Of a stretch of DNA of 64,000 nucleotides, positions 27,155 through 51,520 are shown one piece after another. Origin of the DNA: Octopus vulgaris (Eukaryota); contig OX597839.1 in assembly GCA_951406725.2 (NCBI GenBank), positions 25,482,001 through 25,546,000 on the forward strand, read 5' to 3'. The notes under the pieces are model-generated. The model was not told where the DNA came from. It made no database searches and worked only from the letters and a program-made list of their open reading frames with translations. The position numbers were made by a program, and so were the translations under genes. Position 1 is the stretch's first letter; every line of letters starts with the position of its first letter.

Positions 27155-29687
27155 TGTGGGTGGAGGGGTTATAAGGCTGATTATTGCTAAATTTTAGGAA
27201 TTAATAATGGAACTTATTAAGACCAATAATGCCAGATATTCAAGCACCGAGAACATGAAGATTTGAAAAGTGACAATGAAGGACGGTTCTTTAATAATAG
27301 AAGCAGCAGCATCGAAGCATGGTGCCGAATATAATATATATCTTGTTCTTGTTCCAGTTGTTAGCATGTTGGATAAACTATTTTGTGGAACTTGTTCCGG
27401 ATCTTGAACTCAAATCTCAGCAAGGTCAACTTTGGAGTTAGTAAAGTTTAATATTGGGGCAGATTCCTCTCTACCTAAGAAATTAGCTGTGTCCAGATCT
27501 GGAGAAGGATGGGTTCTGCCAAGCTTAAAACTCACATGATAAACTGTATGTAATCACACACACACAGAGATCCTATTTTGTTACTGTATTTCTAATGAAA
27601 TACGTTGCCTTTCAATTAATTTCGAAAAATAGCAAAGAATTTAGTAAAATGACTGTCATTAATTCAGCTGGAGTTTGGAATATAAATTAATATGAAATTA
27701 TGAAGGAAGGTTTTAATTTAGATAACTTTAAAACAGTAAATCATCATCATCATCATCGTTTAGCGTCCGCTTTCCATGCTAGCATGGGTTGGACGGTTCA
27801 ACTGGGGTCTGTGAAGCCAGAAGGCTGCCCCAGGCTCCAGTCTGATCCGGCAATGTTTCTACGGCTGGATGCCCTTCCTAATGCTCGTATTGTAAAACCA
27901 GGAGCAGTCTCAGACAGGTTGATACCAAAAGAGGCAACAACACAACATACAGGAATGCAAAGTAAAAATATTTTCAGAGGACCAAAGTGAGGAATTAGAA
28001 GAATCATCGAGATGTTAGCCGTGATGAATAAGAACTTGTCTCATGCAATGGTCCATGCAGTGATGGTGAGATTAATATGTCAAAGAAGGAGAATAATTAG
28101 CAGAAAATATCATCTAATGTCCACTTTCCTTGCTGGCATGGGTTGGCCGGTTTGACTGAAAACCAGCAAGCTGGGAGGCTGAACCAGGCTCCAATCTGAT
28201 CTGGCAAGGTTTCTACAGCTGGATGCCCTTCCTAATGCCAACCACTCTCAGAGTGTAATAGGTGCTTTTTACATGCCTCTGGCGTGGGTGCCAGTCAGGC
28301 GGCACTGGCATTGGCCACACTCGAATGGTGCTATTTACGTGCTACCGGCACAGGTGCCAGCCAGGTGGCACTGGCATCAGTGATACTTGAATGGTGCTTT
28401 TCACATGCCACCGACATGGGTGCCAGCCAGGCGGCACTCACATCAGCCACACTCAAACGGTGCTTTTTACATGCCACAGACACGGGTGCCAGTCAGGTGG
28501 CACTGGCATTGGTCATGCACGAACGGTGCCTTTTATGTGCCACACTAATATTTGTTTAAAGAAATGGAAGATTAACAATGCTCGCCCTATTGAAGGTGAA
28601 TTACCCCCGCCCCCCTTGCACTTTGCCCCACCAGACTGTGTTTTAACTGTAAACTACATTCTGTTAATAAGATACAGATGAAGATGGGGCGATGGCAACA
28701 GTGACTGGAGATGGAGGATCCTGGTGGAGTGTATGGCTATGACATGAGACTGTGGTGTGTGGTGAGCAATAGTGGTTGTATCTGAGGCTATGACATGAGA
28801 CTGTGGTGTGTGGTGAGCAATAGTGGTTGTGTCTGAGGATTGAACCCTTGCCTATGATCATTGGGATATTCATTCATTCACAGTTTTTATTATTATTTAT
28901 CTCCATATTATTATTTTATTATTATTTATCTCCGTTACTTAGCGGTTTGGCAAAGGAGACCAATAAAATAAGTACTGGGCTTACAAAAGAATAAGTCCCA
29001 GGGTTGAGTTGCTCGATTAATGGCGGTGCTCCAGCATGGCCGCAGTCAAATGACTGAAACAAGTAAAAGAGTATATCAGAAGCTCCAGGATGTATTTAAC
29101 CCCTTACCTGGCAAAGACAAGTTAACTTGTCTTCACCCAATTTGTCTTTCTCAGATTGCAACGAGTAAACTCATCCAAAATATATCATTCCAAAGCCAGC
29201 CACAGATGATTTTATACATCAATTCTTGGCATTTCTTGTGTTTTATCTGTTTTTTATTTACAAATTATGCCCAGATGTCAAGCTGAGAAGATGACAATGA
29301 GTATGAACCTTCTATTAGAAGTTTGGATACATCAGATGAGAGTGCAAGCTCGTCTGATAAAAAAAATTTGTCTGAAAATGAAACTTTTCTCCAAAAAGAG
29401 TTGCTGGGGAAGGGGTTTAAAATTGAATAAAGTAAAATATTTAAAACTGTTTTGTCACCTTATTTCTAAAGAAATACACCAATCTGATGGGTTTTGATTA
29501 ATTATGAAAATAATCAAGAATTCAGAGCAGATAGAAACAGGTGTGTTGCTGTAGAGGAATGGTGTCATGCGGAGAAAGTGGACTTATTAAAAAATAATTA
29601 ATAGAGACAGAAGCAGTATTAATAATCCCACTGGCTATCTGCAACACCAGGGCCAGAACAGACATTCTATATATTACTGACAGAGAA

Positions 29688-29774
29688 ACTGCTGCTGTCT
29701 CCAGCCATGGATGTCTGTCACTGACGAGGCCAAGGAAGGCTGAAATCATGTGATCTAGTAATTCTAGCAGCAGT
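29688..29774 (+). ncRNA. Type I hammerhead ribozyme motif (probably a decayed PLE/retrozyme copy)
   Basis: CTGACGA 29721-27; stem II GGCC/GGCT with loop AAGGAA; GAAA 29742-45; stem III ATCA-TG-TGAT; putative cleavage after C29755; distal ACTGCTGCT/AGCAGCAGT helix. The proximal stem I pairs poorly. Confidence 0.6.
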
Positions 29775-30229
29775 AGTGGATGATTATCTTCCACTATATA
29801 AACATGATAAACAGCGATATAAACATGATGTGCCATAAGTCCATATGAGAGGTCCTCTCAGAGTAAATAATGCAGTATTTTGTGTTCCAACACAACAGTC
29901 ATGTTAATTAAGAGATAAACATGACTTTTTGGTATTAACACAATATTGCTTCTGTTGCTATTAATTATGATGGGAGGTTTTAATATAAATACGAACATTT
30001 TAAAATGAGAAACAGTGTCAAGAAAGTATTAAAGACATTAACCCTTTTGTTACCAAAACAACCGTAGCCAAAGTTTGGAACATGTTTTAAACATTAAAAT
30101 TGTTATGCCCGAGTACAATTTGATTCACACATATACGATGTAGAAATATACTTCAGGACAAGTGAGACCATAACCCATGGCCTTCACCTGGGATGTAGCC
30201 AGTCCTTTTCTTCTTGGGATACAAAACTC

Positions 30230-30608
30230 TGCTTGCGAAGACCTGTTGAGGCAAGTGAAATCAAAATCAATGGAAATTGTAGTTGTGATACCAGTGCTGG
30301 TGGTACGTAAAAGAACCATCCAAATGTGGCCGTTGCCTGCGCCGCCTCGACTGGCCTCCGTGCTGGTGGCACGTAAAAAGCACCAACCAATCATGGCCAT
30401 TGCCAGCCTCGCCTGGCACCTGTGCCAGTGGAACGTAAAAAGCACCCACTACACTCATGGAGTGGTTGGCGTTCGGAAGGGCATCCAGCTGTAGAAACAC
30501 TGCCAGATCAGACTGGAGCCTGGTGCAGCCTCCTGGCTTCCCAGACCCCAGTCGAACTGTCCAACCCATGCTAGCATGGAAAACAGACGTTAAACGATGA
30601 TGATGATC
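30230..30608 (+). mobile_element. RTE-related non-autonomous repeat with (GAT)n tail
   Basis: Core GTTGGCGTT(A/C)GGAAGGGCATCCAGCTGTAGAAAC and tail AAAACGGACGTTAAACGATGATGAT. Copies at about 2520-2630, 39030-39370, 40370-40580, 46140-46350 (+) and 27741-27885, 28110-28545, 35355-35600, 41598-41790, 48863-49345, 50771-50960, 52786-52985 (-). Confidence 0.75.
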
Positions 30609-30609
30609 C

Positions 30610-30840
30610 AAGGCGGTGAGCTGGCAGAACCGTTAGCACACCGGGCGAAATGCGTAGCTGTATTTCGTCTGCCGTTACGTTCTGAGTTCAAATTCCGCCG
30701 AGGTCGACTTTGCCTTTCATCCTTTTGGGGTCGATAAATTAAGTACCAGTTACGCACTGGGGTCGATGTAATCGACTTAATCCGTTTGTCTGTCCTTGTT
30801 TGTTTCCTCTGTGTGTAGCCCCTTGTGGGTAATAAAGAAA
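30610..30840 (+). mobile_element. tRNA-derived SINE family 2 with a Meta-like central domain
   Basis: A box GCTGGCAGAA, B box GAGTTCAAATTCC, core GCCTTTCATCCTTTCGGGGTCGATAAATTAAGTACCAG resembling the MetaSINE domain. Other copies at about 11421-11654(+), 20630-20965(-), 26229-26445(-), 33082-33705(+, cluster), 35650-35970(-), 46367-47105(+, cluster) and 55955-56865(-, cluster). Confidence 0.87.
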
Positions 30841-31856
30841 CGGATGATGATGATCCAATGGTTCAATTAGAAGATATTGACCCATTCCATCAACTTTTAG
30901 GTAAATATATCTCTATGTTGTATATATCTGAATTGAACTGTACATTTGGACATAACAATTTTAATTTTTAAAAAATGTTACAAACTTTTAGCCATGACTG
31001 TATTTTGTTACTACTTCCACCTATGAAATCAGTTTATTTGTTACAGACTTTTGTAGTAGCCCGGTAGCTCCTAAAAGGGATCACACAAGACCACCCTCTC
31101 TCCCTAGTTCACCTTCCATGATTTATTCAGGAGCAATGTGGGTGGAGGGGTTATAAGGCTGATTATTGCTAAATTTTAGGAATTAATAATGGAACTTATT
31201 AAGACCAATAATGCCAGATATTCAAGCACCGAGAACATGAAGATTTGAGAAATGTCAATGAAGGACATTGTTTCAATAAATTTTGAAAGTAATGAGGAAT
31301 TTAGAAAAATATTTTTGCCATTATTAAGCCGGTGATTGGAACATAGAATAACATGAAACTTTAGTGGAAGACTAATTTAGATCACTTTAAAACAGGGAGT
31401 TTGTATCAAAGAGCTGGGGCTGGTGTGAGACAGGTTGGTAACAAAAGGGTTGGTTTACAAAAGATGTTTAATAGTTTAAAAAAAGACAAAAACAAAACAA
31501 AAAAATCTCCAAAAATGTTAATAAATTCAACTCTATGAAATTAACCCTTTAACCCTTCTATTTCTGTTGAGATGCTCTGAGTTTCTTTCAATAAATTTTA
31601 AATATAACAAAGAATTTAGTAAAATAACATTGTTATGATTAAGTTAGTGTTAGGAACACAAATTGTGACTAAGGTTTTGTGGAAGATTTTAATTCAAAAC
31701 TTTTGAAAACAAGACATTTGTACTACAGAGCCAAAGGTGGATTCAGGTGGGTTGGTATCAAAAGGGTTAATTTGCAGATTTTGTTTCACATAGTTGTTTG
31801 ACTTGTTAGAAATAGCAGCCAAATCTTGTACAAACTGAAGACACATTTGACTGTCT

Positions 31857-32086: not shown

Positions 32087-32325
32087 CTGTGAAATTAAAT
32101 TTCACAATTATTTATTCCAGGAAAGATATTAAATATCTATCTCAAAATAGAATTAGTATTTTCTGCAATAAACTTGACGTATCTCAACAAAAAATAGTTT
32201 TGAGCACAACATTCCTCAACAAAAGACAAACTGGTTTATAAAACTGATTTCCACAGTTAAAGGGTTAATTTGTAATCACAACCAACCAAACTTTGAATGA
32301 AACTTAATGAGACTAATCAACTTAC

Positions 32326-32553
32326 TTTATGTTTGGCTGAGTATATCTGATTGTGAATGAGTTGTTGTAGTTCACGCAGGAGCGATCGTAGCTGGCCAGA
32401 TTTGATGTCACTGATAGAATTACAAGTCTCTTCGACTGGGCCAACATAATCCACGTCACTGCCATCGCTGATGGCTTTGGCCTGGTTCTGTGTCCGAAGT
32501 TTAGCACATAATTTACAGAGGAGGTTGTACACTTCGACAATCTCATTTAGAAA
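32326..32553 (-). CDS. BICD-related protein, internal exon (phase 0/0)
   Basis: Acceptor ttgctttgttttcag|TTT, donor AAA|gtaagt. 228 nt: FLNEIVEVYNLLCKLCAKLR...GQLRSLLRELQQLIHNQIYSAKHK, with amphipathic helical segments. Confidence 0.85.
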
Positions 32554-33704
32554 CTGAAAACAAAGCAAAACAAAAAGAAATAATTAAAACCAAAAAAAAA
32601 AAAATCCCTAAAATCTATTCTGTTTCAGTGAAGGAACAGGAAACTAAAGAGAAGGAATCCGTCTTAGTGAGAGATCCAGGAAGGGATCTGTCAAGTGATA
32701 TTTGTGTACGTTTAGATACAGAACACAGAAACATTGAAATAGCTCATTATTATAATTAAAGGTGGGTGAATTGTGCAAGAATGGCCAATTCTGAGGTTTC
32801 GCCTGTAATTGAAAAAGGTGTTATAAAAGGAGAAAGGGGCTCTCTACCCCCCTTTTGACCAGGCTCCCGTTGGCTTTTATGGGTTTTTCCACCAGGAACC
32901 TTTCGTAACGCCTCCCCCTATTGGGAGTTTTTCATTGTTATATTATTTGATTGTTACACTGTTTTTACACAATTTTTTCACAAACGGACAAAACCCTTTG
33001 TAACCTTTCGTCCCTTTATGTTTCCTAATCATGTGTGTCAGCCCTTGTGGCCAATAAAACAAATTAATTATTATTAATATTAAGATGGCAACTTGGCAGA
33101 ATCGTTAGCACGACGGGTGAAATGCTTAACGGTATTTCGTCTGCCGTTACGCTCTGAGTTCAAATTCCGCCGAGGTCAACTTTGCTTTTCATCCTTTCGA
33201 GGTCAAATTAAGTACCAGTTACGCACTGGGGTCGATGTAATTGACTTAATCCGTTTGTCTGTCCTTGTTTGTCCCCTCTGTGTTTAGCCCCTTGTCGGTT
33301 GTAAAGAAATAGATATTTCGTTTGCCGCTACGTTCTGAGTTCAATTTCCACCGATGTCAACTTTGCCTTTCTTCTTTTCGGGGTCGATAATTAGGAACCA
33401 GTGAAACACTGGGGTTGATGTAATCAACTATACTCCTCCCCTAAATTCCAGGCCTTGTGCCTATAGTAAAAAGGATTATTATTAGTATTAAGGCAGCAAA
33501 CTGGCAGAATTGTTAGCATGTTGGACAAAATGCTTAGCGGTATTTTATCCATCTTTACTTTCTGAGTTCAAATTCCCTCCAAGGACGACTTTGCTTTCAT
33601 CCCTTTTGGGGTTGATAAAATGAGTACCAGTTGAACACTGGGGTCAATGTAGTCGACTCATCTCCACCCCCAAAATTGCTGCCCTTGTGGAAAAATTTGA
33701 AACC

Positions 33705-51124: not shown

Positions 51125-51520
51125 CTACTCAGCCTAATGTGGAAGCCAGGTATACTCACAGGAATTCCAAGCACCCCACCTTTTTACCCAGTTACAATAA
51201 GAAACTTGAAAGCCAGTCCAGAAGGAGAATTTCTAATTTATAAAAACATCTCCAGAGATATTTTTAATAGAGCTGCACTACATTATAACAAAACATTAGT
51301 GAGGACTGGCTTTAGTGACAAATTAGTGTGCTCAGAGGATCCTAGAGAAAAATAATCTTGGTTAGTTTTCCATTAAACCTAGATGTTTATAAACACAGCT
51401 ACACACTACTTATTCCCAATAAGGCAATACTTTCTAAGCACACATAACTGCAAACTTTTTAATGTGCATAATATTAAGGTCAGTTACTCCTACCTAGATA
51501 ACATTGCACTATAATACCTA
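51125..51520 (+). mobile_element. Second, more decayed Penelope-like fragment (RT thumb/linker)
   Basis: PNVEARYTHRNSKHP, RRISNL, DIFNRAALHYNKTLVRTGFSDKL and KLFNVHNIKVSYSYLDNI occur in the order expected for PLE ORFs. Confidence 0.72.

What the first reader, a model, noticed from the sequence alone, without database searches (positions are those of the whole stretch)
29688..29774. Hammerhead ribozyme fold inside a BICDR intron (antisense to the gene)
Seen: the catalytic boxes CUGACGA and GAAA, a 4-bp stem II, a near-palindromic stem III (AUCA-UG-UGAU) ending at an AUC cleavage triplet, and a perfect 9-bp enclosing helix (29688-96 with 29766-74). Established: type I hammerheads with short palindromic stem III occur in Penelope-like element pseudo-LTRs and non-autonomous retrozymes, and often cleave as dimers. 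Inference: the surrounding ~340 bp (29520-29860) matches no other repeat in this window and may be a monomer of a cephalopod retrozyme family mobilised by Penelope elements like the relics at 24.1 and 51.1 kb. The proximal stem I is broken here, so this copy may be dead.
Basis: partly seen in the sequence, partly recalled or inferred. Interest (0 to 1): 0.72.

Follow-up and report, generated by a model that had tools for sequence, protein, structure and literature searches.

The report
Fossil retrozyme copy with broken hammerhead
This is one worn, likely dead copy of an old protein-free jumping repeat, found in at least 150 places in this genome, that carries a predicted self-cutting RNA and was likely pasted in by Penelope-type retrotransposons; it is a new example of a known kind and likely does nothing for the gene it sits in.

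Summary
The hammerhead motif is real (core 29721-29755, + strand) and lies antisense in an intron of a BICDR-like gene. It belongs to a dispersed, non-coding repeat of about 348 nt with at least 150 copies. The element spans 29577-29968: a 48-bp inverted arm plus one unit. Across 153 copies helices I-III are conserved and two helix-I pairs covary (p 4e-12 and 1e-9). The family core is mostly the known U3-A8 variant (110 of 153); this copy's C3-G8 is a minority form (6 of 153). The family is a fossil: median 17% from its majority sequence, with heavy CpG decay. This copy's helix I keeps only 4 of 6 pairs. Of 139 loci, 68 run from tail into head and 37 are head-to-head two-armed insertions, with 3' ends at two sites about 40 nt apart, the Penelope footprint. 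One locus fuses a family arm to a GIY-YIG Penelope arm. No link to the window's own relics was found. Cleavage and circular RNA are untested. The scan has reported this kind of element many times on other DNA, in this and related genomes. Verdict: new member of a known kind (non-LTR retrozyme), low to moderate interest.

The parts
29577..29624 (-). Inverted, 5'-truncated arm of the same family (monomer positions 315-348 plus 1-14), joined head-to-head to the main unit
29619..29968 (+). One full unit (monomer positions 1-345) of the ~348-nt non-coding family; 12.5% from the family majority at non-CpG sites, 16 of 19 CpG sites decayed
29715..29720 (+). Helix I, 5' strand
29721..29727 (+). Catalytic strand, positions 3-9; C3-G8 here, U3-A8 in most copies
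29728..29741 (+). Helix II, 4 bp with 6-nt loop; G10.1-U11.1 here, most likely CpG decay of C11.1
29742..29755 (+). GAA, near-palindromic helix III (a perfect 10-nt palindrome in the family majority) and C17, the predicted cut site
29756..29761 (+). Helix I, 3' strand; mismatched at 29757 and 29761
29709..29765 (+). Distal 3-bp extension of helix I (29709-11 with 29763-65) beyond an internal loop; its inner pair covaries in the family
29688..29774 (+).
32320..32583 (-). Open frame holding the nearest identified upstream exon of the BICDR-like host gene
   Evidence: E 0.25
6586..6726 (-). Downstream exon of the BICDR-like host gene (C-terminal region)
   Evidence: E 1.4e-4

Best explanation
This is a decayed, likely inactive copy of an old dispersed ~348-nt non-coding repeat whose source RNA likely cut itself with a type I hammerhead and was likely copied into DNA by a Penelope-type reverse transcriptase/endonuclease. 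Shown: the family, its size and age, the conserved and covarying hammerhead helices, the lack of a long ORF, copies longer than one unit, head-to-head arms and two 3'-end sites. Inferred: source elements were transcribed as more-than-unit RNA, cut after C17 (as a monomer through the 4-bp helix III, or as a dimer through its palindrome), probably ligated into ~348-nt circles, and reverse-transcribed from a fixed start region ~160-200 nt downstream of the cut, often running past one unit and often giving a second, inverted arm. This copy landed antisense in an intron, so host pre-mRNA does not carry the ribozyme strand, and it has since decayed.
For: 49 matches by DNA search; 150 of 150 scored candidates match the family model; 42 exact 20-nt pattern hits against 0 in the reversed control, only 26 of them among those 150 (compared by eye), so the true number is higher. 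In 153 copies: helix-I pair 107-149 A-U 79 / G-C 34 / mixed 26 (p 4e-12); pair 101-153 G-C 45 / A-U 52 / mixed 29 (p 1e-9); core pair 3-8 U-A 110, C-G 6, C-A 24, U-G 4 (p 0.006; 0.017 without this copy). Intact sibling matches Hammerhead_HH9 at E 4e-6. Longest stop-free frame 62 codons. Of 139 loci: 48 longer than one unit, 68 cross tail to head, 37 head-to-head against 1 tail-to-tail; 119 of 192 3' ends fall at monomer 301-320 or 341-20 while 5' ends are spread; 9 of 12 scorable two-armed loci have one short and one long end. Craig et al. (PMC8557442, passages) describe this partial-tandem, inverted-copy, 30-40-bp-tail shape for Penelope-like elements. Age: median 17% from the majority, closest distinct pair 14.5%; 1452 of 2676 CpG sites decayed. 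The hammerhead fold costs this copy about 16 kcal/mol above its best fold, against 1.8 for the family majority.
Against: No cleavage or RNA circle is shown. The covarying pairs mark subfamilies, so they count few independent events, and many non-paired columns covary as strongly; the tool's shuffle control on 39 copies was only modest (5 of 500 for the covariation score, 203 of 500 for pairs changed on both sides). One other helix-I pair tested did not covary (p 0.54). 24 of 153 copies have a C3-A8 mismatch, more than background mutation predicts. Long tandem arrays, typical of described retrozymes, were not seen; most loci hold one to two units. 0 of 29 loci picked by the GIY-YIG protein carry the family's hammerhead within 1.5 kb. 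This copy is one of the 3 of 12 scorable two-armed loci that do not fit the short/long rule. All loci were picked for likeness to this copy's hammerhead, which biases the end and core counts.
Confidence: 0.8

Rival explanations
1. The unit is the pseudo-LTR of an autonomous Penelope-like element whose coding part is lost or was not sampled.
For: Penelope-type insertion shapes; U3-A8 hammerheads are reported in Cercyon elements (PMC4209133); one locus abuts a GIY-YIG element.
Against: In 68 of 139 loci the sequence upstream of the head is the unit's own tail, not coding sequence. Only 1 of 139 loci hits the one Penelope-type protein tested, and in the opposite orientation. That element has its own unrelated 3' UTR. 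Other Penelope families were not tested.
Confidence: 0.12
2. This copy is a working, host-adopted ribozyme, like the conserved intronic hammerheads of amniotes, cutting an antisense transcript.
For: It keeps every core base, a C3-G8 pair and helices II and III. The insertion is present at about 97-99% identity in contigs of two organism labels.
Against: Helix I has two mismatches, and the orthologous contig of the second organism differs at only one other site over 29727-29897. The predicted fold traps the core. It is antisense to the host gene. Its divergence and CpG decay are typical of the family.
Confidence: 0.03
3. The family is a short retroposon or satellite fragment and the hammerhead likeness is chance.
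For: No Rfam hit at the gathering score; weak fold z-score.
Against: All catalytic positions and three helices stand in the correct order across 153 copies, with compensatory pairs, and an intact sibling matches a hammerhead model.
Confidence: 0.03

Closest known systems
Metazoan non-LTR retrozymes (Cervera and de la Pena 2020, PMC7229834: passages and section 14 read; Li, Clavereau and Pollet 2026, bioRxiv 10.64898/2026.07.22.740005: part 1 of 5 and passages read)
   Same: Non-coding unit of about 350 nt (mussel: 350-390 bp), type I hammerhead, long self-paired fold, head-to-tail continuity, Penelope-like elements in the same genome.
   Different: Mostly dispersed one-to-two-unit, often two-armed insertions rather than long arrays; U3-A8 core; 4-bp palindromic helix III; fossil; expression and circles not shown.
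Hammerheads in pseudo-LTRs of Penelope-like elements, including the U3-A8 variant of Schistosoma Cercyon elements (Cervera and de la Pena 2014, PMC4209133: parts 1-2 of 4 read)
   Same: U3-A8 core, palindromic helix III, G10.1-C11.1, single dispersed motifs and opposite-strand pairs 100-700 bp apart.
   Different: Canonical 6-bp helix I and 4-bp helix II instead of the minimal design; no extra base between positions 9 and 10.1; no ORF flanked.
Rfam Hammerhead_HH9 (RF02275), canonical type I
   Same: Same helix lengths and an internal loop in helix I; sibling L016 scores E 4e-6.
   Different: Below the gathering score (29.9 against 52 bits); this copy E 0.66; part of a repeat, not a conserved single-copy intronic element.

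Membership tests
Type I hammerhead ribozyme | Conserved core bases with a Watson-Crick 3-8 pair and an NUH site | tested here: met
   This copy C3-G8 and AUC; family U3-A8 in 110 of 153. U3-A8 is reported as natural and active in vitro (PMC3088659, passages).
Type I hammerhead ribozyme | Helices I, II and III pair (family) | tested here: met
   111 of 153 copies keep 5-6 of 6 helix-I pairs; 11 keep the core and all three helices; compensatory pairs.
Type I hammerhead ribozyme | Helix I pairs (this copy) | tested here: not met
   4 of 6 pairs, two of them wobble; active fold about 16 kcal/mol above the best fold.
Type I hammerhead ribozyme | Rfam gathering score | tested here: not met
   13.8 bits for this copy, 29.9 for a sibling, cut-off 52.
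Type I hammerhead ribozyme | Self-cleavage after position 17 | not testable with these tools
   Needs an in vitro assay.
Non-LTR retrozyme | Short (150-450 bp) non-coding repeat unit with a type I hammerhead | tested here: met
   348-nt unit, longest frame 62 codons.
Non-LTR retrozyme | Head-to-tail tandem organisation | tested here: met
   68 of 139 loci cross the tail-head junction, 48 exceed one unit; L015 and L064 hold two or more units. No long arrays seen; this copy is a monomer plus an inverted arm.
Non-LTR retrozyme | Abundant circular RNA | tested here: inconclusive
   Only contigs of runs guessed to be RNA were available.
Non-autonomous partner of Penelope-like elements | Inverted 5'-truncated adjacent copy and a 30-40-nt tail at one end | tested here: met
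   37 head-to-head against 1 tail-to-tail; two 3'-end sites about 40 nt apart; 9 of 12 short/long.
Non-autonomous partner of Penelope-like elements | Sequence kinship to a pLTR, or an identified partner | tested here: inconclusive
   One chimeric locus; no sequence likeness to that element's 3' UTR or to 7 loci picked by the window relic.
Autonomous Penelope-like element (pLTR) | Unit flanks an RT + GIY-YIG ORF in sense | tested here: not met
   0 of 139 loci in sense for the one family tested; 0 of 29 in the reverse test. Flanks examined were 0.5-1.5 kb.

The most novel reading that the evidence does not exclude
The family's insertions record a Penelope-type enzyme copying a 348-nt hammerhead circle, and the chimeric two-armed locus L009 (a retrozyme arm fused head-to-head through 7 nt to a truncated GIY-YIG Penelope arm) is a single integration event that used both RNAs and so names the autonomous partner, a physical link so far proposed only from co-occurrence and phylogeny in the papers read.
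Probability: 0.3. Interest if true: 0.6.

Novelty: new member of a known kind. Interest (0 to 1): 0.28.

Why it matters
For the locus itself, little: it is a dead intronic repeat copy. For the field, it adds a cephalopod-type retrozyme family with a U3-A8 core in a canonical helix frame (two searches, listed no paper on cephalopod retrozymes), and its insertion shapes support the proposed Penelope-driven mobilisation of animal retrozymes. Younger families noted elsewhere in this scan would be better material for testing that.

Tried and rejected
Rfam: no hammerhead hit over 28500-31000 and nothing at gathering score in the whole window. An exact search for the fully CpG-intact 35-nt motif found 0: no young copy of that form. 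The GIY-YIG family beside L009 as the unit's own coding part: rejected, 0 of 29 loci. The window relics as partner: 51254-51508 and 24413-24550 match the same open frame of L046 (E 2e-16 and 5e-5), whose Atlas look-alikes carry PF26215 at low recognition; no Pfam RT or GIY-YIG hit; calling them Penelope-like rests on my recall of the motif; no family sequence lies near them. C3-G8 as a distinct clade: not supported, such copies are scattered on a weakly resolved tree; yet 5 other C3-G8 copies against about 1 expected suggests a minority source form. A loop II / helix I pseudoknot was considered by eye; no such pair was among the top 25 covarying pairs. Expression: no RNA holder listed; contigs of runs guessed to be RNA hold scattered, diverged family fragments, and one low-depth contig crosses the tail-head junction, but that junction also stands in the large genomic-looking runs, so it says nothing on circles. 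No target-site duplication was seen by eye at 29577 or 29968. The paper on exchanges of the 3-8 pair (PMC1986816) is not held; a search for 'U3A8' found nothing. Supplements of the cited papers were not read; they may list related motifs.

Full report
Observation. The described motif is present at the stated place: CUGACGA at 29721-27, a 4-bp helix II, GAAA, a near-palindromic helix III and C17 at 29755. A core pattern written after the fact occurs once in the window and never in 200 resampled windows. Minus-strand frames at 32320-32583 and 6586-6726 match BICDR1 in order (E 0.25 and 1.4e-4), so the motif is intronic and antisense. The 87-nt stretch does not fold as a hammerhead on its own: only helix II forms, z -1.96. 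Rfam finds no hammerhead in 2.5 kb and only E 0.66 in a 141-nt search.

It is a repeat family. The 341-nt query has 49 matches in the genome at 67-94% identity besides and including itself. A covariance model built from 39 copies matched 150 of 150 scored candidates and nothing else of note in the window. A 20-nt pattern has 42 exact hits against 0 in the control; by eye only 26 of these are among the 150, so several hundred copies are likely. Of the 150 hits, 30 came as loci and 80 more stretches were fetched; the rest overlapped loci already held or, for the 20 weakest new ones, were not fetched. After removing duplicates (186 hits to 154; one further mapping duplicate dropped) 153 copies at 139 loci were analysed.

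Anatomy. The unit is about 348 nt, with no frame over 62 codons. The hammerhead sits at the tip of a predicted ~135-nt rod. In the window the element runs from 29577 to 29968: a 48-bp inverted arm joined head-to-head to one full unit. Of 139 loci, 68 run from the tail into the head, 48 exceed one unit, 37 have head-to-head arms and 1 tail-to-tail. 3' ends pile up at monomer positions 301-320 (58) and 341-20 (61) of 192, while 5' ends are spread. Of 37 two-armed loci 12 have both ends in these classes: 9 short/long, 2 long/long (one is this copy), 1 short/short. A microsatellite follows 35 of 192 3' ends against 176 of 2036 control stretches. Craig et al. describe partial tandems, an adjacent inverted 5'-truncated copy and a 30-40-bp tail at one end as typical of Penelope-like insertions (PMC8557442, passages).

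The ribozyme in the family. Core and helix positions are the best conserved part. Helix III is a perfect 10-nt palindrome and position 11.1 a C before CpG decay; 22 copies match an 18-nt pattern with the intact palindrome, 0 in the control. Two helix-I pairs covary: 107-149 (A-U 79, G-C 34, mixed 26; p 4e-12) and 101-153 (G-C 45, A-U 52, mixed 29; p 1e-9); a third pair tested does not (p 0.54). These changes mark subfamilies, so they are few events, and unpaired diagnostic columns covary as strongly; the shuffle control on 39 copies was modest. The core is U3-A8 in 110 copies, C3-A8 in 24, C3-G8 in 6 (this one included) and U3-G8 in 4 (p 0.006; 0.017 without this copy). In the independent pattern search this copy is the only C3-G8 of 42. 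U3-A8 is known: natural and active in vitro (PMC3088659, passages) and common in Schistosoma Cercyon elements (PMC4209133). An intact sibling scores Hammerhead_HH9 at E 4e-6, below gathering.

Age and state of this copy. Copies are a median 17% (8-31%) from the majority at non-CpG sites, the closest distinct pair 14.5%, this copy 12.5%; 1452 of 2676 CpG sites have decayed, 16 of 19 here. Only 11 of 153 keep the core and all three helices. Here helix I has mismatches at 29757 and 29761, and forcing the hammerhead fold costs about 16 kcal/mol against 1.8 for the majority (a rough figure from a constrained fold). Contigs of two organism labels hold the orthologous insertion at about 97-99% identity, one of them differing at a single site over 29727-29897, so the break is shared and old.

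The partner. One locus, L009, holds a Pfam GIY-YIG fragment (E 7e-5) of an abundant Penelope-type family (150 of 150 scored candidates). Its 3'-most 500 nt are fused head-to-head, through 7 nt, to a family arm, the same geometry as the two-armed insertions. That is suggestive of one integration event with two RNAs. Against it: it is 1 of 139 loci; 0 of 29 loci picked by the protein carry the family's hammerhead; CpG decay is 8 of 15 in the Penelope arm and 16 of 20 in the family arm, so a later insertion at a shared TA-rich target is possible. The window's relics at 24.4 and 51.3 kb resemble each other's relative L046 but not this Penelope family, and no family sequence lies near them.

Mechanism. 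Most likely (0.8) the source elements were non-LTR retrozymes: more-than-unit transcripts cut after C17, probably closed into circles, and copied by a Penelope-type enzyme from a fixed region downstream of the cut, often beyond one unit and often with a second inverted arm. The family, the helices and the insertion shapes are shown; cutting, circles and the enzyme are inferred. A linear multimeric RNA would give the same tail-to-head copies as a circle. Sequencing runs gave no usable evidence on expression.

Comparison and novelty. It works like, and passes the testable features of, the metazoan non-LTR retrozymes (mussel units are 350-390 bp; PMC7229834, section 14), whose Penelope origin a 2026 preprint argues from distribution and phylogeny. 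It differs in being dispersed, two-armed, U3-A8 and fossil. Searches for hammerhead with octopus and retrozyme with cephalopod listed no paper describing such a family. Verdict: observation confirmed, interpretation supported, a new member of a known kind, interest 0.28.

Noticed in passing
L009 920-1844 (G000:C4:53487076-53490309): Chimeric two-armed insertion: a 5'-truncated GIY-YIG Penelope-type arm fused head-to-head through 7 nt to a family arm; possibly a co-integration that names the partner.
   Followed up: partly
L069-L098, 3' UTR about 75-110 nt after the GIY-YIG stop: That Penelope-type family carries its own minimal-hammerhead-like motif with a U3-A8 core (U3-G8 in two), an extra base before a 4-bp helix II and a 4-nt palindrome; the pattern hit at that place in 14 of 30 loci. 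Its 3' ends also seem to come in a short and a ~35-nt longer form.
   Followed up: partly
window 50157-50212 (+): A second hammerhead-like arrangement: a GAAAC box, then CUGAUGA, a short helix and another GAAA; no Rfam hit. It may be a worn copy of the rearranged hammerheads noted elsewhere in this genome.
   Followed up: partly
window 15616-17523 (-): 635-codon open frame with a reverse transcriptase domain (PF00078, E 2e-30), a fairly intact LINE fragment in another intron; pieces of a like element at 7342-7520 and 13800-13940.
   Followed up: no
window 24060-24860 and 51113-51510 (+): Two broken retroelement relics matching the same open frame of L046; Penelope-like by recalled motif only.
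   Followed up: partly
window 29797-29828: Copy-specific short tandem duplication just downstream of the rod.
   Followed up: no
family alignment, core positions 3 and 8: C3 occurs in 30 of 153 copies against a 4% background of T-to-C change, and 24 of them have A8, a mismatch not explained by CpG decay alone; some source elements may have carried a weakened core.
   Followed up: partly
L065, L066, L067 (C17): Three near-identical copies of one two-armed insertion, a recent segmental duplication rather than new transposition.
   Followed up: no
run X7, contig of 1031 nt, laid on L016 1665-1791: A deep contig (depth 311) of a run guessed to be RNA carries a family fragment without the hammerhead, perhaps in a UTR.
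   Followed up: no
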